Assembly: GCA_037200965.1 (NCBI GenBank)
Contig: JBBCGK010000001.1
Coordinates: forward strand, 640,001 to 704,000
Direction: 5' to 3'
From: a bacterium
GTDB taxonomy: Bacteria > Patescibacteriota > Minisyncoccia > Phycocordibacterales > Phycocordibacteraceae
DNA length: 64,000 bases
Below, piece after piece: positions 6,116-37,522 of this stretch (its first letter is position 1; every line of letters begins with the position of its first letter). Under the pieces are notes generated by a model. The model was not told the origin of the DNA, did no database searches, and worked only from the letters and a program-made list of their open reading frames with translations. The translations under genes and the position numbers were made by a program.

Positions 6116-6973
6116 ATGTCGGATGGTACCAAGTATTTTGTATGGCTGCTGGCCTCCCTTGCGGCTGCTAACGCGTTTCTCGCGTATTCGGCCCTTCGGA
6201 CGCTTCCGTCCGTTCTCACAATTTCATTCCTCAGTGTCGGCGCGGGAGAAGCGATCCTTGTACAAAGTCCCGCGGGAGCCGACATTCTCATCGATGCCGG
6301 GCCGGACGCGTCAATACTTCGCGCGCTCGGAACCGAGCTCGGCCCTTTTGATCGGACGATCGACGCGATACTCGTGACGCACGGAAGCGCCAGCGCGATA
6401 GGCGGTCTTTCCGATGTCTTCAATGACTATCAAGTCCGCTCGTTCTTCTCTTCGGGGGTGAATTATCATTCTTTCGCCGAGGAGGTGTTACGGGATGCAC
6501 TGAAACATGAGCAAGGATTGCAAACCGTCACGCTTGCGCGCGGCGAGCGTATCGATATCGGAGGAGGCGCCTATATCGACGTGCTCTATCCCGACCGGGA
6601 CGTATCGGGAGTCGATAGCGACACCGCCTCGCTTGTACTGCGTATCGTATACGGTGAAACGTCGTTTCTTATCACCGGTGCCGCCCCGTCGGGCGTCGAA
6701 GAATATCTGGTACGGCTCGATGGTGCGCGCCTTAAAAGCGGTGTGCTTCTTGCGGGGGACAGCGGCAAGAAAACCTCGACTTCGGCTACTTTTCTTTCGG
6801 CGGTGCATCCCGATACGGTCGTGATCTCGGTGGATACAGGCAACCGGTTCGGATATCCTCATCAGGAAACGCTCGACCGCATTGTTACGGAGGGCGCAGC
6901 CATAGCGCGGACGGGAGACGGCTCCGTGCGGTTCGTAAGCGACGGGAATACCGTACGGCTTGAAAGCCGATAG
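6116..6973 (+). CDS. ComEC C-terminal-type metallo-beta-lactamase domain protein (degenerate THxSAS motif), N-terminal signal/TM
   Basis: ILVQSPAGADILIDAG, ILVTHGSASAIGGL, MBL fold typical of ComEC C-domain encoded as separate gene. Confidence 0.6.
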   Translation: MSDGTKYFVWLLASLAAANAFLAYSALRTLPSVLTISFLSVGAGEAILVQSPAGADILIDAGPDASILRALGTELGPFDRTIDAILVTHGSASAIGGLSDVFNDYQVRSFFSSGVNYHSFAEEVLRDALKHEQGLQTVTLARGERIDIGGGAYIDVLYPDRDVSGVDSDTASLVLRIVYGETSFLITGAAPSGVEEYLVRLDGARLKSGVLLAGDSGKKTSTSATFLSAVHPDTVVISVDTGNRFGYPHQETLDRIVTEGAAIARTGDGSVRFVSDGNTVRLESR

Positions 6974-7944
6974 GTACTTAATATCGCACTAACATATCGA
7001 ACACTCTTGCAGTCGAGCATACGGCGTCTTGAGCTCGATGCCAAGGTGCGGCCGTTCGTGGTTGTATTCGCGCAGAAAGGCCTGATACTGGGCATTGAGG
7101 TCCTCCATTGAAGCGGGCTTTTTCATGAAGCGCCAGAAGAACTCCTCCTCGTCGGTGCGGAATGACCGCTCGATGACCGCGTTCTCATTCGGGTTCGCCT
7201 TGTGGATGAAATGATGCTTCCAGCCGAGTTCCCCAGTCACGAAGGCGCGGAAGCGGCTCTGGAACTCAAGGCCGTTGTCGGTCTGCACGAAATCCGGTAC
7301 GAACGGCAGCGAAACCGTCCGCAGGGCCTCGATGGAGAAGTCCTGCACGAGCTCGGGGAAGATGACGCCAGCTTTGTATCGGCTCCAAATATCAATGACG
7401 GCATACAGATACAGGGTATGCGGGAGCCCCGACAGCTCGGGCGTCACGTACTTCACATCCATCTGAAGCTTCCCGGGCGCGGTCACGTTCTTGAGATACA
7501 TATGCGTGGTCTCCTGATATCTCGGCCGTCGGTATGACGCGCCTTCCAGTATATGACCTTTCGCTTTGAGGAAGCGATGGATGGTCGCCGGGTGCTCGGA
7601 GAGGCCGAGCAGCACTTTGAGCTTGCGCGCCCCGTATCCTTTCTCTTCGCGCAGGCGCAAGAGCGCCTCAGCCCGCTCTCCCGAGAGCGTCCTGCGGCGA
7701 AGACGCTTCGGTCTTGTCGACTTGCGGACAAGCTGCCGCGTCGAGAGCGCAAACCGGCTCCGGATGCTCCGGGCTCGCTTCTTCCAGAACACCACCGTGC
7801 CCGGAGATATGCCGAGTGTCCGTGCGGTTTCGCGCACCTTTCCTCCCGACTTCTTCAATTTCCTGATGATTTCCCTGGGTTCTTTGCGCATATCCTCCTT
7901 AGTATTAGGGAGTGTTCGATATGCAGTGCGACCTTAAGTAGGTA
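6973..7944 (-). mobile_element. IS481-family insertion sequence (~970 bp) with ~34-bp imperfect terminal inverted repeats
   Basis: left end GGTACTTAATATCGCACTAACATATCGAACACTC (6973-7006) vs right end GAGTGTTCGATATGCAGTGCGACCTTAAGTAGGT (7910-7943); single DDE transposase inside. Confidence 0.75.
6989..7891 (-). CDS. IS481-family DDE (rve) transposase
   Basis: N-terminal HTH, integrase core with DNG..E (TDNGLEF), C-term ERPHLGIELKTPYARL; stop lies in terminal IR. Confidence 0.85.
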   Translation of the reverse strand: MRKEPREIIRKLKKSGGKVRETARTLGISPGTVVFWKKRARSIRSRFALSTRQLVRKSTRPKRLRRRTLSGERAEALLRLREEKGYGARKLKVLLGLSEHPATIHRFLKAKGHILEGASYRRPRYQETTHMYLKNVTAPGKLQMDVKYVTPELSGLPHTLYLYAVIDIWSRYKAGVIFPELVQDFSIEALRTVSLPFVPDFVQTDNGLEFQSRFRAFVTGELGWKHHFIHKANPNENAVIERSFRTDEEEFFWRFMKKPASMEDLNAQYQAFLREYNHERPHLGIELKTPYARLQECSIC

Positions 7945-8027
7945 TTGCTTTCTTGCTACTATATGCTATAGTGATCCCGGTTCCCGAAAGGGATTTGGCT
8001 GTGTTTTTACAGAAGGAGTACTTTTAA

Positions 8028-11230: not shown

Positions 11231-12268
11231 TCAAGAATATATCGCAACACCCGTATCCCTCCAGAATACTTCCTCGGGCGTCAGCCCGCCATGGCGCTTG
11301 CGTGGTCGGGTATTGATGAGGCGTTCCGCTCGAGCAAGCTCCTCGTCAGAGACCAAACTCCAGTCGGTCTTCTTTGGGAAAAATCGACGGGCTAGACCAT
11401 TCGCGTTCTCGTTTGAGCCGCGCTCGCACGAGCTGTATGGATGGGCGAAGAATATATCCATGTCGAGTGCTTCTTTGACTTCTTCCCACCGCACGTTCTC
11501 CGTACCGCGGTCTCGCGTGAGCGTCTTGCGCACGCGCTTTGGAAGAGCGGAGAGCCGTTTGATGAGTGCCTCGTCGCAGACAACGGCCGTACCATCCTTG
11601 GCCTTCTCAAAGAAGGTCACACCGCTCCTGCGCTCGGTCATACTTTTGACACGGTCGGTTGATTGCCTCGACACCATGGTGTCGTCTTCCCAGTCACCGA
11701 TGCGGGAGCGTTCGTTCACCACCTCGGGACGCGCTTCGATTGAGGGCAACGCCTCATTCCGTGCCATTCTGCGGGCTTTCCTGAAGCCCTGCTTCGCACG
11801 CGCCTTGTGGCGACGTGCCAAATGCGGCCGCAGATCGGTCTCTCCGGGCTTCACCGATCCTCGGCCCTTGCGATGTATCCTGCGGTATACCTCCTGGTAT
11901 ACCGCTTCGGTTGAGATGCGCATGGAAGGGTCGTCGGGGTATTCAAGTGGCAGTCGTATATGCACTTGCTCGGGAGACCATTTCTTTTCCCGCATCTTCT
12001 CCTCGACGTACGCTTTGAGTGTTGGGGTACGCTTCATTTTTGGCGTGTTGCCTCGCTTGCCAATGCGTTCTTGCGCTTTTGCGTGTGCCGCTTCAGCTCG
12101 ATACCGCCCCATCCCTTTGCGCGGTTTCCCCGCAAGCTCGCGGGAGACCGAGCTCTTGTTGCGGCCGAGTTCCGTGGCCATGTCCGTGACGCTCTTTGCG
12201 TCCTTGCGCCATCTGACTTCGATGATGCTTCGTTCGCGGAGCGTGAACGGTCCCTTGTTTTGTGCCAT
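11231..12268 (-). CDS. IS30-family transposase
   Basis: HTH N-term, DDE core DRGTEN, C-term HPYSSCERGSNENANGLARRFFPK, LINTRPRKRHGGLTPEEVF; ATG at 12268 (the track start at 12274 is TTG). Confidence 0.85.
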   Translation of the reverse strand: MAQNKGPFTLRERSIIEVRWRKDAKSVTDMATELGRNKSSVSRELAGKPRKGMGRYRAEAAHAKAQERIGKRGNTPKMKRTPTLKAYVEEKMREKKWSPEQVHIRLPLEYPDDPSMRISTEAVYQEVYRRIHRKGRGSVKPGETDLRPHLARRHKARAKQGFRKARRMARNEALPSIEARPEVVNERSRIGDWEDDTMVSRQSTDRVKSMTERRSGVTFFEKAKDGTAVVCDEALIKRLSALPKRVRKTLTRDRGTENVRWEEVKEALDMDIFFAHPYSSCERGSNENANGLARRFFPKKTDWSLVSDEELARAERLINTRPRKRHGGLTPEEVFWRDTGVAIYS

Positions 12269-12315
12269 ATCCAATTAGCCTAGTCTGCTAATTGGGTGTT
12301 GCAATTAATTCTGGA
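11231..12315 (-). mobile_element. IS30-family insertion sequence (~1085 bp)
   Basis: terminal IRs CAAGAATATATCGCAACACC (11232-11251) vs GGTGTTGCAATTAATTCTGG (12295-12314, reverse complement, 16/20 match); transposase stop inside IR. Confidence 0.75.
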
Positions 12316-16151: not shown

Positions 16152-16559
16152 ATGTCTACCATAAACCAGCTCGCGAAGAAGCGCCGCAAGGATAAGACGA
16201 GGAAGACCACGGTCCTCGCTCTTGGCCGCGGCTTTAACGCGCTCGAGAACCGCCCGACCTACTATTCCTCGCCCTTCAAGCGCGGCGTTTGCACCAAGGT
16301 GACCACGAAAACTCCAAGGAAGCCGAACTCGGCCGTCCGCAAGATCGCGCGCGTGAGGCTCACGAACGGCATGGAGGTCACCGCGTATATCCCCGGAGAA
16401 GGGCACAACCTCCAGGAGCACTCGGTGGTGCTGCTTCGCGGCGGCCGCGTGAAGGACATCGGCGTCCAGTACACGATCGTGCGCGGCAAGCTCGACACCG
16501 CGGGCCTCGAGAAGCGCCGCCGCTCGCGCTCCCGCTACGGCGCGAAGAAGCCTAAATAA
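16152..16559 (+). CDS. rpsL: 30S ribosomal protein S12
   Basis: MSTINQL..., [21 protein letters not shown]... motifs. Confidence 0.9.
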
Positions 16560-16564
16560 TTTCC

Positions 16565-17029
16565 ATGCGACGTCCTCTTAAAAAGAAGCGAACCTGGCGC
16601 CCCGACCTCAAGTACGGATCGGAAGGCCTTGAGCGTTTCGTAAACGCGGTCATGTGGGACGGAAAGAAAGATACCGCCCGCGCGGTCGTCTACGGCGCGC
16701 TTGAGAAGGTAAAGGAGAGCGGCGCAGACCCGCTTGAGACGTTCGAAGCGGCTATCAGGAACGTCTCTCCTCTTATGGAAGTCCGCTCCCGCCGCGTCGG
16801 CGGCGCGAACTATCAGGTGCCGCGCGAGGTTCCCCAGCAGCGCCGTCTCGCGCTTTCCTATCGCTGGATTATCGGCGCTGCCCGCTCGAAGAAGGGCAAG
16901 CCGATGGCCGAGAAGCTCGCCGAGCAGCTCGTCCTCGCCGCAAAGAACGAAGGCGACGCCATCAAGAAGAAGGATGACATGCACCGCATGGCGGAGTCGA
17001 ACAAGGCATTCGCGCACTTCGCGTGGTAG
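16565..17029 (+). CDS. rpsG: 30S ribosomal protein S7
   Basis: S7 sequence, follows rpsL by 5 bp. Confidence 0.9.
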   Translation: MRRPLKKKRTWRPDLKYGSEGLERFVNAVMWDGKKDTARAVVYGALEKVKESGADPLETFEAAIRNVSPLMEVRSRRVGGANYQVPREVPQQRRLALSYRWIIGAARSKKGKPMAEKLAEQLVLAAKNEGDAIKKKDDMHRMAESNKAFAHFAW

Positions 17030-17050
17030 TCATTTCATAGTATCCGAAAC

Positions 17051-17089
17051 ACAAAAGACGGCCGCGCTACGGCCGTCTTTTGTGTTTGC
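17051..17089. terminator. bidirectional rho-independent terminator
   Basis: ACAAAAGACGGCCG-CGCTA-CGGCCGTCTTTTGT then TTTG; between convergent rpsG and hypothetical gene. Confidence 0.6.
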
Positions 17090-17151
17090 GGCGGTGAATA
17101 CAAAGCAAAGGGTACGGTCCTGAGACCGCACCCTTTCACTCACCCCTTCTC

Positions 17152-17661
17152 TTATCCGGACCGAACGAGCTGCTGTAGCACCCGCACCTGGTCTCCTTCG
17201 TACCGGGCTGCTGCCCGAAGAGTTTCGGCCGTTTTCATCCATTCCCCGATTGCGGTGTGTATGCCGGATCCGATAACCGCTCTCAGAGTACCTGGAAGGT
17301 CGTTCTTGGCCATATCGCCGCCCGGGAGGGAATCGAAGAAAGCGTCCCAAGAGAGCCTTGCGAGACAACCGTATCCGTCTATTTTTGGGGGCGGCTTCGG
17401 GCCAACCAAATACACGCGGACGAACCCGCCTTTGACGGTGACTGGTTTCCCGTCCTTGCGTTCAAGCGAGCCGGGAACGGGAGCGTCGAGCGCCGTAAGA
17501 ATTTCATAACCCGGCGGCATATCGAATGTGACGGCCGCGATTGCTTCGAGGAATGCGCGTTCGTTTCCGTCCGGGTGACGGGCGATAGCTTCGACCGGAA
17601 TGCAATGACCGGACAATTCCTCCAAGTGCGAGAAAGCGGCGATAGAGCTGATGATGCGCAT
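17152..17661 (-). CDS. hypothetical protein (169 aa)
   Basis: ORF only; cargo between rpsG and IS481-like element. Confidence 0.4.
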   Translation of the reverse strand: MRIISSIAAFSHLEELSGHCIPVEAIARHPDGNERAFLEAIAAVTFDMPPGYEILTALDAPVPGSLERKDGKPVTVKGGFVRVYLVGPKPPPKIDGYGCLARLSWDAFFDSLPGGDMAKNDLPGTLRAVIGSGIHTAIGEWMKTAETLRAAARYEGDQVRVLQQLVRSG

Positions 17662-17744
17662 GATTTCCTCCTTGCGCTAGAACGGATTTACGGAATCGAA
17701 TCCGGAAGCACCATAGCATGGCCGTCCGGTTTTTACCCTAAGCA

Positions 17745-18845
17745 GCCGGATTGCCGCAACTTGCACAAGTTCAGATACATATGGCACTCCTCCTAACTGA
17801 GGAGCGATGCGTCAATTCAACATACTGAAGGATACCGAGGGCTGGTTGTATATGCGCGAGCGGAGCATACGCTTCCTGCATATGAGGAACAACGACGAGG
17901 TGCGGCATCGGGTCAAGGTGCTGGACTTCTGGAAAACGCACGGGGAGCGTGCGGCCAGGGACGCCTTCAGCGTCTCTCGCCGCACGCTCTTCCGTTGGCA
18001 GGCGAAGCTCGACCGCGCGCACGGGAGACTCGACGCGCTCGATCCCAAGTCGACGGCACCGAAGAATCGGAGGAGACGCATCGTCCTCCCCGAGGTCGAG
18101 ACGTTCATCCTGAAGGAGCGCGCGGAGCATCCGAGGCTCGGCAAGGCGAAGCTCGCAGCCCTGCTGCGGGAGGACGGGTACCGGGTATCCGAATCGTATG
18201 TCGGGAGGGTCGTCGCGGACCTCAAGAGGAGAGGGCTGCTGCTCCCGCACAAGCCGCTCTCATACTATGCGCGAAGCGGCACGTATCGGGAGAAGCCCGT
18301 ATCGAAGCGCACGAAGCTGCGCAGGCGGCACAAGCGGGGCATGGAGCTCGACACCGTCGTCCGCTTCATCGACGGCGTGAAGCGGTACGTCCTGACCGCC
18401 ATCGATGTCGAGAAGAAGTTCGCCTTCGCCGGCGCGTATACCGTCCACTCCTCCGCGTCCGCCGCCGATTTCCTCGCGCGCGTCATCGCGGTGTGCCCCT
18501 TCGACATCACGGAGCTCCAGACCGACAACGGCCCGGAGTTCGCCAAGAACTTCGAGGCGGGGTGCCGCGCCCTCGGCCTCACCCACTTCAATACGTTTCC
18601 CCGCAGCCCGAAGATGAACGCGTTCGTCGAGCGGTTCAACCGGACGATCTCGGAGGACTGCATCATGCTCAATCGGCCGCTCCTGCGGGACGACGTCGCG
18701 GCATTCAACCTGAAGCTGGTCGACTGGCTGCTCTGGTACAACGCCCGGCGTCCGCACGAGTCCCTGGGACAGGTGCCGCCGCTCCGGTATATACTCTCCT
18801 CATTAACGGCCGAGGAGTGCCAGAGGTACTGGACGCGTACGCCTG
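17745..18845 (+). mobile_element. IS481-family-like insertion sequence (second, divergent copy); right end abutted by IS30
   Basis: upstream end CATATGGCACTCC...CTAACTGAGGAGCGATG resembles the IS at 6973-7944; the C-terminal ECQRYW segment is homologous to the ECSIC-stop IR of the first copy; approximate boundaries. Confidence 0.55.
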
Positions 18846-18850
18846 AACCC
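17807..18850 (+). CDS. IS481-family DDE (rve) transposase (ORF in the track reads through to 19003 into the adjacent IS30)
   Basis: HTH N-term, TDNGPEF, SPKMNAFVERFNRT, RRPHESLGQVPPLRY; no stop codon before the IS30 junction. Confidence 0.7.
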
Positions 18851-19849
18851 CACTCTAACTGCAACACTCACTTCCTCAGAAATATCGAGCGCGGTGATTC
18901 GAATTTCAGACGCTTGCGCGGCCGGTCATTGAGCTTCTTCACCACATGCGCCAGCTCCTCAGGGGTGATCAGGTTGAAGTTGAGCGAACGAGGAAAGTAC
19001 TGACGCAGGAGTCCGTTGGTATTCTCGTTGGTACCACGCTCCCAAGGACGGTGCGGGTATGCGAAGTACACGGTTGCCCCGCTCTTCTTCCCGAGTCGCT
19101 TCCAGTCGGCAAATTCTGGACCGTTGTCGAGCGTGATGGTCTTGCGTTTGGCACGCGGAATATGACGGAAGCGTGCGAGCGCAAGCGACGTGAGGAGCTC
19201 GGCGCGCATCTTGGGCAACAAGTATGCAACCAGGTATCCGCTCCTGCGATCCACAAAGGTGACAATGCGGACTCGCTTGTCGCTGCCTTGCACCGTATCG
19301 CCCTCCCAGTCGCCGAGCCGGCTTCGTCGTTCAATAATCGTTGGACGGTCATCAATACGCTGCTTCTTGGCCGCTTCACGAGCCTTCTCGCGTATTTTGG
19401 TACCGCGCCTGCGACGGTATTTGCCTTTGGATGATCTGAGGAACTGCTTCAGGTGCGGAGCACGCTCCTCAATATATCGGTATATGGTGCTGGCGGAGAC
19501 TGCACCCGTCACCCCTTCAATTTGCTCAGGAGAGTGGTGGTCTTTGAGCATACGCACCACCGTGCGCAAGAGCGCACCCTTGAGCACGCGAATACTGTCC
19601 ATTGCAGCAATGCGTTTCAGCTTCTTCTTTCTGCGTACTTCGCGTACATCATATCCCTCACGTCCGCCGTATTCGTTCACATGACGAGAGATCGATCCTG
19701 CATCCTTCTCAAGCGTACGTGCGATCTCTCGGATCGCGTGTCCTGCCCGCAGCATGCGGGCAATCACCGGCCAGTCTCCTGGCCCAATCTGGGTATGTGC
19801 CATATCCAGAGAGTGTGGAACCCAAAAGAGCTGTTGCAATTAGCCTGCA
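18846..19849 (-). mobile_element. IS30-family insertion sequence (second copy, different lineage)
   Basis: ends CTAACTGCAACAC (18855-18867) and CTGTTGCAATTAG (19831-19843) inverted; same architecture as IS30 at 11231-12315. Confidence 0.65.
18868..19803 (-). CDS. IS30-family transposase
   Basis: DDE core, YFAYPHRPWERGTNENTNGLLRQYFPR, LNDRPRKRLKFESP. Confidence 0.85.
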   Translation of the reverse strand: MAHTQIGPGDWPVIARMLRAGHAIREIARTLEKDAGSISRHVNEYGGREGYDVREVRRKKKLKRIAAMDSIRVLKGALLRTVVRMLKDHHSPEQIEGVTGAVSASTIYRYIEERAPHLKQFLRSSKGKYRRRRGTKIREKAREAAKKQRIDDRPTIIERRSRLGDWEGDTVQGSDKRVRIVTFVDRRSGYLVAYLLPKMRAELLTSLALARFRHIPRAKRKTITLDNGPEFADWKRLGKKSGATVYFAYPHRPWERGTNENTNGLLRQYFPRSLNFNLITPEELAHVVKKLNDRPRKRLKFESPRSIFLRK

Positions 19850-19888
19850 AACTTTGTTGCGATTAGGGTGGGGATTCACCTACACAAC

Positions 19889-19918
19889 TTTGACAGACCT
19901 TTGTCTATAGGTTATTAT
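19889..19918 (+). promoter_or_regulatory. sigma70-like promoter TTGACA-N18-TATTAT upstream of 19963 gene
   Basis: consensus -35 and near-consensus -10 with 18-nt spacing; flanked by CCTTTGTC/GACAAAGG inverted repeat. Confidence 0.35.
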
Positions 19919-19962
19919 ATCCATGGATTCCCGAGTGGCGGGACAGACAAAGGGAGACGTGC

Positions 19963-20391
19963 ATGAACAATCCTGAATTCCGCGAACTCGCGCAGGAAAT
20001 CGATCTGTTTTTGTATTCGGCTGACGGCGAGCGCATCACCGACTATCTGAAGTTCCATGAGAAGCGTATCGTCCTGTTCCGCTCCACGGACTTGGGCGTA
20101 TACCGCTGCTACGGCCTCATGTATGCGGGCTTCGCCTGCTGGGCGGATGCCGACGTCGAGCCCGACGCTGACCCGGCGCTTCGTTCGCTTGACGCTGAGT
20201 CATTCGTCGCGCGCTGGTTCAAGGAAACGGGCGACAACTCCGCCGCGTCGCTCGTCGAAGCGATCAGGCAGGGTTATAGGCGGTTGTGCGAAGAGGATGA
20301 AAACCCCCCGCTCACTGGCCTTGTCCTCGGAATTATCGTTTTCCTCGCCGTTTTCATCTTCCTTGGACTCAAGATCACGGGTCATCTCTGA
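19963..20391 (+). CDS. hypothetical tail-anchored membrane protein (142 aa)
   Basis: single C-terminal hydrophobic helix LTGLVLGIIVFLAVFIFLGL. Confidence 0.4.
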   Translation: MNNPEFRELAQEIDLFLYSADGERITDYLKFHEKRIVLFRSTDLGVYRCYGLMYAGFACWADADVEPDADPALRSLDAESFVARWFKETGDNSAASLVEAIRQGYRRLCEEDENPPLTGLVLGIIVFLAVFIFLGLKITGHL

Positions 20392-20429
20392 CGGCCCGTT
20401 CGCAAGAACCGGTACAACACTTGGGCGCG

Positions 20430-20463
20430 GGCCCGGACCACAAATCCGGGCCTTTGCTTTTCC
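20430..20463 (+). terminator. rho-independent terminator
   Basis: GGCCCGGA-CCACAAA-TCCGGGCC then TTTGCTTTTCC. Confidence 0.5.
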
Positions 20464-20549
20464 TAGAAAACCCGCTACTCTATGGATAACGCCTCGGCGC
20501 TTTTATTTTTACCGCTTCCAGACACAACACATCCCTTACGTACTAGTAT

Positions 20550-22697
20550 ATGAACCGCGACTACCCGCTTGAGAAAGTCAGGAACTTCGGAATCATCGCC
20601 CATATCGACGCCGGAAAGACCACCACGTCCGAGCGCATTTTGTATTACACCGGTTCCCAGCACAAAATCGGCGAGGTGCACGACGGAGAGACCACGACCG
20701 ACTGGATGGAGCAGGAGCGGGAGCGCGGCATCACCATCACGGCCGCCGCCATCACCTCCTTCTGGACCCGCACCAGCGAGCCGGACAAGAAGGACGTTTC
20801 GAAAAAGTTCCGCTTCAACATCATCGACACGCCGGGACACATCGACTTCACGGTCGAGGTGAAGCGGTCCATGCGCGTCCTTGACGGCGCGGTCGTCGTT
20901 TTCGACGGCGTCGCGGGCGTCGAGCCGCAGTCGGAGACCAACTGGCGCTATGCGGACGAGGCCAATGTGCCGCGCCTCTGTTTCATCAACAAGCTCGATC
21001 GCACGGGCGCATCGTTCGAGTTCTCCTATAAGAGCATTCTCGACCGCCTCTCGAAGAAGGCCGTGCGCATGCAGATCCCGGTGGGAGAGGAAGACCAGCA
21101 CGAAGGCGTCATCGACCTCCTTTCCATGAAGGCTTTCACCTTCACGGGCAACATGGGCGACATCGTGACCGAGGGAGAGATCCCGGCGAACCTCCTTGAG
21201 GACGCGAAGAAATACCGCGCAGAGCTCATCGAGCGGATCGTCGAGCACGACGAGGCGGCGATGAGCGCGTATCTTGAGGGCAGGGAGCCCGAAGTGGCGG
21301 AGCTTAAGACGATTCTCCGCAAGGCCGTGATCGCGAACGCGATCTTCCCGGTCTTCACCGGTTCCGCGCTCAAGAACAAGGGCGTGCAGCTCGTGCTTGA
21401 CGCCGTCGTCGACTATCTCCCGTCGCCTCTCGACATGCCGCCCGTCAAAGGCATCAACCCGAAGACCGGCGAGGAGGTCGTCCGCAGGGCTTCCGACGAC
21501 GAGCCGTTCACCGCGCTTGCCTTCAAGCTCCAGACCGATCCGTTCGTCGGTGCCCTTACGTTCTTCCGCGTCTATGCGGGAACTTTGACCGCAGGCTCGT
21601 ACGTATACAACTCGACGACCGGCAGCAAGGAGCGCGTCGGCCGCATCGTGCGGCTTCAGGCTGATAAGCGCGAGGAAGTGGAGAAGGTGTTCGCGGGAGA
21701 GATCGCGGCGGCCGTAGGTCTCAAGGACACGAAGACTGCGCACACGCTCTGCGACGAGGCGAATCCGATCATCCTCGAGACTATCAAGTTCCCGGAGCCG
21801 GTGGTATCGCTTCGCATCGAGCCGAAAACCAAGGCCGACCAGGAGAAAATGGGCATGGCGCTCAAGAAGCTCTCCGACGAGGACCCGACCTTCCGCGTCA
21901 CCTCGGACGCCGAAACCATGGAGACCATCATCTCGGGGATGGGCGAGCTGCATCTCGAGATTCTGGTCGACCGCATGCAGCGGGAGTTCAACGTGGGCGC
22001 GAATGTCGGGAAGCCGCAGGTGGCATACCGCGAGACGGTGCTCGGCGCGTCCGATGCCGAAGGCAAGTACATCAAGCAGACCGGCGGCAAGGGCCAGTAC
22101 GGGCATGTGAAGATCAAGATGAAGCACCTCGAGCCTTTGGACCCTGAAGCGAAGATTCCGAAGAACGTCACGCGCGAAGCCAATTTCGAATTCATCAACA
22201 ACATCAAAGGCGGCGTGGTGCCGGCTGAGTTCATCGCTCCCGTCGAGAAGGGTATCCGCGAGTCGATGGCGCGCGGCATTCTCGCGGGCTTCCCGGTCGT
22301 CGACATCTCCGTCGACCTCTACGACGGTTCGTACCACGACGTGGACTCCTCGGAAATCGCCTTCAAGATCGCGGCATCGATGGCCTTCAAGGAAGCCGCG
22401 ACCCGCGCGAAGCCGGTGATTCTCGAGCCGATCATGAAAGTGGAGGTGGTGGTGCCGGAGAAGTTCATGGGCGACATCACGGGGAACCTCTCCGGGAAGC
22501 GCGCTTCGATCGAAGGCATGGAAGAGCGCGGCATGAACAAGGCGGTGCACGCCAAGGTGCCGCTCTCCGAGATGTTCGGGTATACGACGACGCTGCGCTC
22601 CATGACCGAGGGCCGCGGCTCCATGACCATGGAATTCGACCACTACGAAGTCGTGCCCCAAAACGTCGCGCAGGACATCATCGCGAGCAGGAAGTAG
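20550..22697 (+). CDS. fusA: elongation factor G
   Basis: [16 protein letters not shown]-domain, domains II-V; 715 aa. Confidence 0.95.
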
Positions 22698-36668: not shown

Positions 36669-37522
36669 AGCCTCCGGTCAAGGACTCGGTTCGCACGCAG
36701 GTACGGCCCCACGCAATTCGGCGTGGGGTCTTTTGGATATATTCGACGCCGCCGGATATATATATAGTGTCCTTCCCGTTCGAGATATCGGCTGGTACGA
36801 TCAAGGATCCGGCACGTCCTCGGCTTGTGCAATGTCATCAAGCCGTAGTTGCGCTTGAACCAGTCCTCAATCGCAACACCTTCCAAACCCTCGGCGCGGT
36901 GTCTTCCGGCGAAGACACTTGCGAGGCTGGTGATTGAGAAGGCAGGTCACGCGGTCAGCCTGTCGCTGGGACAGCGCTCCGAGTTCCATGTCCTCGGGAA
37001 AGAACCGGCGCAGCTGTTCTCGCATGCACCCCGCTCCCAGGGATGATGGGGACGGGCGAAGTATACCCGGGCATTGGTATCGCGCTCAATGAACTGCCAG
37101 AGCGTGAACCCGGTACCACGATCGTACGTGATGGTATGTGCAGGAAGATCAGGAAGCGCTCCTCGCGCTTCCTGGTGCACCGTGTTCGTTTCGTCGTCAG
37201 ACACGAGCCGCGCCCGCAAGGAACCCGCCTCTTTCGGTCAACACGGGCCAGAAACCTTGCACGGTCGCGTCCGACCGCGGTATGGTCTCGTCGGATATGA
37301 TGCGTCCCTCTTCGGTGATCTGTTCGGGCGGTCAGCGCGCAGAAGCGCGGACAGAAACACCCGCTCGTCGCGTGTCAAGTGATGATGCGTTGAAGGCCCG
37401 AATGATGGATACCATTCGGGCTTGAAGACAGAAGCATTGCGTTTCAAGCTCGGATTTAAGCTATGATTTAGCGTTGACGCGGGTTGAACCCCGGGCAAAG
37501 CAGGCGCGGACCTCGTTCTCAT
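36560..37522 (-). pseudogene. degenerate IS30-family transposase remnant (multiple frameshifts)
   Basis: fragments ITYDRGTGF...YFARPHHPWERGACEN (36947..37219) and an HTH-like LTRDERVFLSALLRA (37238..37522), collinear with intact IS30 transposases but in different frames. Confidence 0.55.

What the first reader, a model, noticed from the sequence alone, without database searches (positions are those of the whole stretch)
17745..19849. Tandem IS481-like/IS30 composite in which the IS481 transposase ORF reads through into the IS30 terminal repeat
The second IS481-like transposase (17807-) has no stop codon at its expected C-terminus. The ECQRYW segment is homologous to the ECSIC-stop terminal repeat of the IS481 copy at 6973-7944. 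Its ORF continues 135 bp into the oppositely oriented IS30 element, which carries its own inverted ends at 18855-18867 and 19831-19843. This suggests IS30 inserted at or within the right end of the IS481-like element, or that the two move as one unit. The outward-facing sigma70-like promoter at 19889-19918 sits just beyond the IS30 end.
Basis: seen in the sequence. Interest (0 to 1): 0.5.

Follow-up and report, generated by a model that had tools for sequence, protein, structure and literature searches.

The report
IS30 nested in promoter-homing IS481 element
One mobile element (IS30 family) has jumped into the last base of another (IS481 family), an ordinary event; it exposes that this IS481 clade has no stop codon of its own, because it inserts precisely in front of the -35 box (TTGACA) of host promoters and uses the TGA there.

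Summary
The IS481-like element is 1080 bp. Bases 1-1079 are window 17762-18840, the last base is A19884, and its 5-bp target duplication CAACT lies at 17757-61 and 19885-89. A 1040-bp IS30-family element (18841-19880, 3-bp duplication TAC) sits one base inside its right tip. This is a nested insertion, IS481 first and IS30 second, not a composite. A 100% identical solo IS481 copy lies elsewhere on the same contig, and a solo IS30 copy occurs in another assembly.

The missing stop codon is normal for this clade. The reading frame runs through the right inverted repeat and ends two codons later at the TGA of a host TTGACA. Removing IS30 in silico restores a 347-aa protein ending at TGA 19891-93. 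With IS30 in place the protein has 398 aa and a 53-residue tail that is antisense to IS30.

The "outward promoter" at 19890-19918 is the host promoter that the IS481 element targeted. In 74 distinct insertion sites of relatives, 57 match TTGACA in at least 5 of 6 bases exactly 5 bp beyond the IS end, usually with a -10 box 16-18 nt further on. The orientation is always the same. I found no published description.

The parts
17757..17761 (.). Left copy of the 5-bp target-site duplication (CAACT) of the IS481-like element
   Evidence: Identical pentamer at 19885-19889, directly after the displaced terminal A.
17762..18840 (+). IS481-like element, bases 1-1079 of 1080 (5'-TGCACAAG...GCGTAC). IRL is 17762-17792. 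IRR is 18812-18840 and lacks its last base.
   Evidence: 1079/1079 identical to the solo copy L004:2956-4034 on the same 960-kb contig. IR alignment. NCBIfam best hit is the IS481 model; Pfam hits are rve, rve_3 and HTH_32.
17807..19003 (+). Transposase ORF, 398 aa as it stands. Residues 1-345 are native. Residues 346-398 are a 53-aa tail read from the antisense strand of IS30, in place of the native Q-L-stop.
   Evidence: The solo copy encodes 347 aa (P0001).
18838..18840 (.). Left copy of the 3-bp duplication (TAC) made by IS30. It is also bases 1077-1079 of the IS481-like element.
   Evidence: TAC is repeated at 19881-19883. The intact sequence GCGTACA is seen in L004.
18841..19880 (-). IS30-family element, 1040 bp. 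Inverted repeats are about 18841-18866 and 19854-19880.
   Evidence: 100% identical to L003, L093 and L094, which begin or end at these bases. Many relatives sit on stand-alone contigs of 1040-1042 bp. IR alignment.
18868..19803 (-). IS30-family transposase, 311 aa (an upstream TTG at 19839 would give 323 aa)
   Evidence: NF033563 scores 230 bits against a cut-off of 80. The gene is called as 311 aa in the public record.
19881..19883 (.). Right copy of the IS30 3-bp duplication (TAC)
19884..19884 (+). Displaced last base (A, position 1080) of the IS481-like element. It completes the terminal CA-3'.
   Evidence: L004 ends ...GCGTACA, followed by its own 5-bp duplication. The reconstruction gives 1080 bp.
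19885..19889 (.). Right copy of the 5-bp duplication (CAACT) of the IS481-like element
19890..19918 (+). Host sigma70-type promoter (TTGACA, 17 nt, TATTAT), the original target of the IS481-like element. TGA 19891-19893 was the transposase stop codon before IS30 arrived.
   Evidence: 11/12 matches. In-silico removal of IS30 gives a 347-aa ORF ending ...WTRTQL-TGA. The same arrangement is seen at 57 of 74 related insertion sites.
19963..20391 (+). ORF142, the first gene downstream of the targeted promoter. It is followed by a terminator-like hairpin at 20429-20453 and by fusA at 20550.
   Evidence: No Pfam or NCBIfam hit.

Best explanation
Two sequential, independent transposition events.

Step 1 (shown). 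A 1080-bp IS481-family element (5'-TG...CA-3' ends, about 30-bp inverted repeats) inserted immediately upstream of the -35 hexamer of the promoter in front of ORF142/fusA. It duplicated the 5 bp CAACT. Like all its relatives it has no stop codon of its own. The frame stays open through the right inverted repeat (which encodes ...ECQRYWTRT), crosses the 5-bp duplication, and stops at the TGA inside the host's TTGACA. The product was 347 aa.

Step 2 (shown). A 1040-bp IS30-family element inserted one base inside the right tip of the first element and duplicated TAC. This pushed the terminal A, the CAACT repeat and the TGA 1043 bp downstream. The transposase frame now reads 163 bp of IS30 antisense sequence and ends at 19003, giving 398 aa.

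Inferred. The IS481-like copy is probably immobilised, because its right inverted repeat no longer ends in CA-3'. The 53-aa tail has no function. The host promoter is intact.

Family level (shown statistically; mechanism inferred). This ISKpn28-like clade homes to promoters. Its right end lands exactly 5 bp upstream of TTGACA-like hexamers, always co-oriented with the promoter. Nothing is conserved on the other side of the duplication. Recognition is either direct reading of the -35 hexamer by the transposase (I put this at about 0.5) or capture of promoter-bound sigma70/RNA polymerase (about 0.35).
For: Ends of the IS481-like element. The window and L004 (same contig) are identical over exactly 1079 bp, 17762-18840. 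L004 reads gc[CATCC]TGCAC...GTACA[CATCC]TTGACAG. The window reads [CAACT]TGCAC...GCG[TAC]-IS30-[TAC]A[CAACT]TTGACAG.

Ends of IS30. It is 100% identical to L003, L093 and L094, which start or stop at 19880 and 18841. Both inverted repeats extend 10 nt beyond the CAC(T/C)CTAA core, as in the relatives L096, L098 and L100.

Reconstruction. Removing IS30 in silico gives a 1080-bp element and a 347-aa ORF ending at TGA 19891-93.

No in-element stop in the family. Of 104 homologues, 89 have exactly 2 residues after WTRT, and the second is always a residue that an NNT codon can encode.

Targeting. In 25 copies in Kaiserbacteria chromosome OY969413.1, flank positions 6-10 read T21, T22, G22, A20, C19; 13 of the 23 full-length copies have a perfect 5-bp duplication. 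In 48 distinct metagenome sites, flank positions 6-11 read T46, T46, G44, A40, C40, A28. The pattern holds in relatives down to 31-37% identity (22 of 38 loci), in ISKpn28 and in a Nitrosophilus plasmid. Both hexamers match at 4 of 6 or better in 25 of the 37 candidate ends that were scored (four are probably spurious pattern matches), against 0.6% of random positions. TTGAC sites next to an IS have a -10 box in 76% of cases, against 15% for other TTGAC sites. Sites with a weak -35 carry a stronger -10: 80% versus 42% score at least 5/6, Mann-Whitney p=0.003, with a random expectation of 1.4%. Left flanks are unconserved.
Against: Only two independent contexts of this exact IS30 are available, and its left end is never seen next to unrelated DNA other than in the window. 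That end therefore rests on the duplication logic and on inverted-repeat symmetry. A 1041-bp element with a 2-bp duplication would fit equally well and changes nothing else.

Loss of mobility of the IS481-like copy and the irrelevance of the tail are inferred, not tested.

Promoter function of the flanking hexamers is inferred from sequence alone. No transcription data exist for these uncultured bacteria.

Survivorship (selection against insertions elsewhere in compact genomes) inflates the apparent link to functional promoters and cannot be separated from targeting with these data.

The IS481 NCBIfam score (169 bits) is below the curated cut-off of 224.
Confidence: 0.9

Rival explanations
1. 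The IS481-like element and IS30 form a composite that transposes as one 2.1-kb unit, using the IS481 left end and the TACA remnant beyond IS30. On this view the CAACT duplication was made by the composite.
For: The 5-bp duplication CAACT brackets the whole 2123-bp structure. Sequence alone cannot say whether IS30 arrived before or after the move to this promoter.
Against: Only 4 bp (TACA) of the IS481 right repeat lie beyond IS30. The transposase-binding part of the repeat (18812-18840) is 1 kb away from that tip. No second copy of the junction was found. The exact 398-aa product is on record only on this contig. Each element occurs alone.
Confidence: 0.03
2. The junction is an assembly artefact created by joining reads from separate repeated IS copies.
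For: Both elements are repeats. The IS481-like element is present at least twice on the contig at 100% identity. I have no read-level data.
Against: A chimeric join would not produce two nested, perfectly matching target duplications (TAC/TAC inside CAACT/CAACT) together with the single displaced terminal A. The public record carries the same structure within a 960-kb contig.
Confidence: 0.02
3. The association of this IS481 clade with promoters is produced by selection alone. Insertion is random or only weakly sequence-biased, and only copies just upstream of promoters survive in compact genomes.
For: The hosts are mostly roughly 1-Mb Patescibacteria genomes with short intergenic regions. Insertions inside genes, or between a promoter and its gene, would be purged. 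ISKpn28 has been reported inside mgrB at +91 under colistin selection (PMC6101004).
Against: Selection cannot set a fixed distance (the duplication directly abuts the hexamer in about 80-90% of 74 sites). It cannot set a single orientation, nor the stop-codon dependence conserved down to 31% identity. Safe intergenic positions further upstream are not used.
Confidence: 0.05
4. The 398-aa read-through product is a functional new fusion, with the IS30-antisense tail giving the IS481 transposase a new property.
For: The ORF is intact and was called as a gene.
Against: The tail is antisense to the IS30 transposase coding sequence. Other off-target copies carry arbitrary tails of 10-31 residues. 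The element has lost its terminal base, so its transposase has no intact right end to act on in cis.
Confidence: 0.02

Closest known systems
ISKpn28 (IS481 family, Klebsiella and other enterobacterial plasmids)
   Same: About 35% transposase identity over residues 15-347. Same end architecture: TGTGTAAG...TGGACCCATACA, with the inverted repeat encoding ...CNMWWTHT. No in-element stop; annotated coding sequences of 357-377 aa run into flanking DNA. The sampled copies lie 5 bp before TTGCAA, TTGCCT or TTGCGC, followed 17 nt later by a -10-like hexamer.
   Different: The flanking hexamers seen are TTGC.. rather than TTGAC, so the TGA stop is missing in the sampled copies. The host is Gammaproteobacteria. 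It has been reported inside the mgrB ORF under selection (PMC6101004). I found no statement on its target preference in the papers I could search.
IS481 / IS1002 of Bordetella pertussis (type members of the IS481 family)
   Same: Single-ORF DDE (rve) transposase related to IS3 OrfB, TG-initiated inverted repeats, short duplication, sequence-specific target.
   Different: From memory (Stibitz 1998), they duplicate 6 bp at the palindromic consensus NCTAGN. Here the duplication is 5 bp of any sequence, and the recognised motif (TTGACA) lies outside it, on one side only, with fixed orientation. The NCBIfam IS481 score is below cut-off (169 versus 224 bits).
IS30 of E. coli and its family
   Same: The NF033563 score is far above cut-off. 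Length about 1.04 kb, inverted repeats of about 26 bp, 2-3 bp duplication, one ORF filling the element. Insertion into the terminal inverted repeat of another IS recalls the IR-targeting and palindromic hot-spot preference described for IS30 (from memory: Olasz, Kiss and colleagues).
   Different: IS30 IR-targeting is described for its own ends. Here the target is the tip of an unrelated IS481-family repeat, and with one case no preference can be claimed.
Ty3 retrotransposon of yeast (integrase tethered to TFIIIB at Pol III promoters)
   Same: An rve-fold integrase/transposase that places its element at a fixed distance from a promoter element without destroying the promoter. This is a functional analogy only.
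   Different: Ty3 is eukaryotic, an LTR retroelement, and its protein tethering is demonstrated. Here no protein partner is shown and direct DNA reading is at least as likely.

Membership tests
IS481 family | DDE transposase whose best profile match is the IS481 model | tested here: inconclusive
   NF033577 is the best hit (E=1.3e-49, 169 bits, residues 35-327) but falls below the curated cut-off of 224. The IS3 model comes second at 88 bits. PGAP names the 35%-identical relative 'IS481-like element ISKpn28 family'.
IS481 family | Single transposase ORF without programmed frameshift; rve catalytic core with D, D(35)E | tested here: met
   One ORF. Pfam rve and rve_3 hits. D182, D240 and E275 are invariant in 11 homologues, with a D240-E275 spacing of 35.
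IS481 family | Terminal inverted repeats beginning 5'-TG(T) and a short direct target duplication | tested here: met
   5'-TGCAC... and the reverse complement TGTAC..., about 30-nt repeats with one indel. 5-bp duplications: CATCC in L004, CAACT in the window, and 13 perfect cases in OY969413.1.
IS30 family | Transposase matches the IS30 profile above cut-off | tested here: met
   NF033563 at 230 bits against a cut-off of 80, E=3e-68. HTH_38 and rve domains.
IS30 family | Element of about 1.0-1.2 kb, inverted repeats of 20-30 bp, duplication of 2-3 bp | tested here: met
   1040 bp, repeats of about 26 nt with one indel, TAC/TAC duplication. Relatives sit on stand-alone contigs of 1040-1042 bp.
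Composite (compound) transposon | Two copies of the same IS bracketing a cargo segment and moving together | tested here: not met
   The two elements belong to different families and directly abut with no cargo. There is no second copy of either within the structure. Both occur singly elsewhere.
ISKpn28-like promoter-adjacent clade (defined here) | Right end ...TGGAC-N3-TACA encoding W-T-x-T, no in-element stop, 5-bp duplication abutting a TTGAC-like hexamer | tested here: met
   After in-silico removal of IS30 the window copy reads ...TGGACGCGTACA|CAACT|TTGACA, 17 nt, TATTAT. The family pattern is shown.

The most novel reading that the evidence does not exclude
The ISKpn28-like clade of IS481-family elements selects its target through promoter-bound RNA polymerase holoenzyme (sigma70 region 4 and the bent DNA just upstream of -35), not by reading TTGACA itself. 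That would make it a bacterial counterpart of Ty3/TFIIIB targeting. Supporting hints: insertion sites with a degenerate -35 hexamer still sit at the canonical distance from a near-perfect -10 box (80% at 5/6 or better, against 1.4% expected at random). The per-position conservation also mirrors that of sigma70 -35 boxes (TTG > AC > A).
Probability: 0.3. Interest if true: 0.85.

Novelty: new variant of a known kind. Interest (0 to 1): 0.55.

Why it matters
The flagged structure is a routine IS-in-IS insertion and needs no new biology. Resolving it shows that a widespread group of IS481-family elements inserts at one precise position relative to bacterial promoters: the 5 bp directly upstream of the -35 hexamer, in one orientation. 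The group occurs in Patescibacteria, Dehalococcoidia and Campylobacterota, and includes the clinically common ISKpn28 of Klebsiella plasmids. These elements depend on the TGA inside TTGACA to terminate their transposase.

If the property is intrinsic, three things follow. It is a safe-site strategy that leaves the host promoter intact, which matters in 1-Mb genomes. It gives a sequence-only way to locate real promoters in uncultured phyla where none have been mapped. It explains why annotation pipelines call these transposases with variable C-terminal tails. ISKpn28 is available in culturable hosts, so target choice (transposase alone or with RNA polymerase) can be tested directly.

Tried and rejected
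They share 28% protein identity and no DNA repeat.
- An exact look-up of the 323-aa IS30 ORF found nothing. The record uses the 311-aa start.
- A metagenome scan for the IS30 right-end 23-mer gave 0 hits.
- Seven literature searches on IS481 stop codons, TTGACA or -35 targeting, and Patescibacteria insertion sequences found nothing relevant (one search was a syntax error). The ISKpn28 papers give no target analysis.
- I considered whether TTGACA-N17-TATAAT is carried by the element as an outward promoter. This is rejected. The 5-bp duplication lies between the IS end and the hexamer, and the spacer and downstream sequences differ among the roughly 99.5%-identical copies (identity; flanking sequences).
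- I considered target mimicry of the IS ends (subterminal TG(G/A)AC; IRL tip TGCACA versus TTGACA). The resemblance is weak and not conserved in relatives, so I left it as an idea only.
- My first regular expression for right ends was wrong (first part) and was corrected.
- I did not run a structure prediction of the transposase. Similarity of a helix-turn-helix domain to sigma region 4 would not discriminate between the models.

Full report
SOURCE. The window matches NCBI assembly GCA_037975565.1, contig JBBCBH010010897.1 (960 kb). Close relatives of its IS481-like transposase come from Candidatus Kaiserbacteria (Patescibacteria) genomes. The region lies between rpsL-rpsG (16152-17029) and fusA (20550-).

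WHAT IS THERE. ORF 17807-19003 (+, 398 aa) carries HTH_32, rve and rve_3 domains. Its best NCBIfam hit is the IS481 model, at 169 bits, which is below the cut-off of 224. ORF 18868-19803 (-, 311 aa; 323 aa from an upstream TTG) is an IS30-family transposase, at 230 bits against a cut-off of 80. The two ORFs converge and overlap by 136 bp.

ENDS OF THE IS481-LIKE ELEMENT. A protein search returned a 347-aa product that is 100% identical over its whole length and is encoded on the same contig (P0001).
- At DNA level that locus (L004) and the window are identical over exactly 1079 bp, window 17762-18840.
- In L004 the element reads gc[CATCC]|TGCAC...GCGTACA|[CATCC]TTGACAG. It is therefore 1080 bp long, has 5'-TG...CA-3' tips, inverted repeats of about 30 nt and a 5-bp duplication.
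- In the window the left flank is [CAACT]|TGCAC..., but the right end stops at ...GCGTAC, one base short.

ENDS OF IS30. A 100% identical copy in another assembly (L003, GCA_015655515.1) and two stand-alone contigs (L093, L094) match window 18840/18841-19880. They start or stop at those bases.
- Both repeats extend 10 nt beyond a conserved CAC(T/C)CTAA core, as in relatives at 76-78% nucleotide identity.
- Many relatives sit on contigs of 1040-1042 bp.
- IS30 is therefore 18841-19880 (1040 bp).
The latter is an inner second copy of the repeat motif; the true arm is about 19854-19880.

THE NESTED STRUCTURE. Immediately beyond IS30 the window reads TAC-A-CAACT-TTGACA (19881-19895). TAC repeats 18838-18840 and is the IS30 duplication. 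A is the missing base 1080 of the IS481-like element. CAACT repeats 17757-17761 and is the IS481 duplication.
- Deleting 18841-19883 in silico restores a 1080-bp element and a 347-aa ORF ending ...WTRTQL-TGA.
- The order of events is fixed: the IS481-like element came first, then IS30 inserted one base inside its right tip.
- Two nested, exact duplications also argue strongly against misassembly.

WHY THERE IS NO STOP CODON. The intact solo copy has no stop inside the element either. Its frame leaves the repeat (ACG CGT ACA), crosses the duplication and ends at the TGA of a flanking TTGACA.
- Among 120 homologues, 104 carry the terminal W-T-R-T motif. Of these, 89 have exactly two further residues, and the second is always a residue that an NNT codon can encode. 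The rest have arbitrary tails of 0-31 residues.
- The stop codon is therefore supplied by the target throughout the clade. In the window, IS30 simply moved it 1043 bp away.

PROMOTER HOMING (side result).
- A complete Kaiserbacteria chromosome (OY969413.1) holds at least 25 copies of a relative. This relative is also 1080 bp and its transposase is about 70% identical.
- In those copies, flank positions 6-10 after the right end read T21, T22, G22, A20, C19 of 25. A TATA(A/C)T-like hexamer follows 16-18 nt later.
- 13 of the 23 full copies keep a perfect 5-bp duplication. The remainder show flank exchange between copies.
- Nothing is conserved to the left of the duplication.
- The same layout appears in relatives at 47-71% identity from other Patescibacteria and in 22 of 38 loci at 31-37% identity.
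- It also appears in a Nitrosophilus plasmid, and, as TTGC.. hexamers, next to ISKpn28 in Klebsiella and Escherichia plasmids.
- In 48 distinct metagenome sites, positions 6-11 read T46, T46, G44, A40, C40, A28.
- Pooling 74 distinct sites, 57 match TTGACA in at least 5 of 6 bases.

CONTROLS.
- Both hexamers match at 4/6 or better at 0.6% of random positions.
- TTGAC sites not next to an IS have a -10 box (4/6 or better) in 15% of cases, against 76% for IS-adjacent sites.
- Sites with a weak -35 (3-4/6) have a better -10 than sites with a strong -35: 80% versus 42% score at least 5/6, p=0.003, with 1.4% expected at random.
- That compensation is typical of functional promoters. It is the main hint that promoter function, not only the TTGAC word, is being recognised. 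Survivorship in compact genomes could contribute.

THE WINDOW'S PROMOTER. The site at 19890-19918 (TTGACA, 17 nt, TATTAT; 11/12 matches) is the host promoter in front of ORF142 (19963-20391). It was the target of the IS481-like element. It is not an IS30-borne outward promoter.

CONSEQUENCES (inferred).
- The IS481-like copy has lost the CA-3' tip from next to its transposase-binding repeat and is probably immobile unless IS30 leaves precisely.
- Its transposase carries a 53-residue tail read from antisense IS30.
- The two transposase genes now converge.
- The host promoter remains intact 9 bp beyond the IS30 end.

COMPARISON AND NOVELTY. Nested IS insertions are commonplace, and both elements are new members of known families. 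What I could not find described is the combination of four features in this IS481 subgroup. These are a one-sided, orientation-specific target abutting the duplication, identity of that target with the sigma70 -35 hexamer, the accompanying -10 boxes, and dependence on the target for the transposase stop codon. Eight successful searches of the paper library found nothing; ISfinder was not available to me. Classical IS481 and IS1002 instead duplicate a palindromic NCTAGN (from memory). The rating is therefore 'new variant of a known kind', with moderate interest. The flagged composite alone would rate low.

Noticed in passing
window 11231-12274 (-); window ~36983-37156 (-): A second, intact IS30-family transposase ORF (347 aa), only about 35% identical to the one in the finding. 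A short fragment of a third IS30-like gene also turned up.
   Followed up: partly
window 6970-7945: The other IS481-like element has 37-nt inverted repeats, and its 300-aa transposase (6989-7891, -) ends at a TAG inside the right repeat. It therefore belongs to a different subgroup that carries its own stop. Its repeat core (CATATCGAACACTC) resembles that of element b (ATATGGCACTCCTC). The ORF 6116-6973 ends inside its terminal bases.
   Followed up: partly
window 17030-20549: rpsG and fusA, usually adjacent in the str operon, are separated by 3.5 kb. This stretch holds two ORFs with no family match (ORF169 at 17152-17661, minus strand; ORF142 at 19963-20391, plus strand), both IS elements, and terminator-like hairpins at 17107-17136 (-) and 20429-20453 (+).
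   Followed up: no
L006-L029, L036 (OY969413.1, Candidatus Kaiserbacteria, 993 kb): At least 25 copies of one 1080-bp IS, about 2.7% of a roughly 1-Mb genome. Ten of the 23 full copies lack matching duplications, and several share flanks (L013/L029, L021/L024/L018, L006/L011). This indicates recombination between copies. It is an unusually heavy IS load for a streamlined genome.
   Followed up: partly
L084, L086-L090 (Klebsiella plasmids): ISKpn28 sits beside hok toxin genes in at least two diverged hok loci. Its right end lies 5 bp before TTGCAA or TTGCCT, followed 17 nt later by CATACT or TACTCT, pointing away from hok. This may be the antisense sok promoter (not verified). Annotated ISKpn28 coding sequences (357-377 aa) run into flanking DNA and, in L084, into an adjacent ISKpn8.
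   Followed up: partly
window 17945-17989: A 20-nt near-perfect inverted repeat (90% complementary, 5-nt loop) lies inside the IS481-like transposase coding region. Its function is unknown.
   Followed up: no
window 19831-19866: The IS30 left end carries its repeat-core motif CTAAT(C/T)GCAACA twice, 23 nt apart. This may be a second transposase-binding site.
   Followed up: no
L003 1042-1060: In the only other context of this IS30, a TTGACA lies 10 nt beyond its right end (GGCAGTCGATTGACAT). With a single case this is probably coincidence.
   Followed up: no
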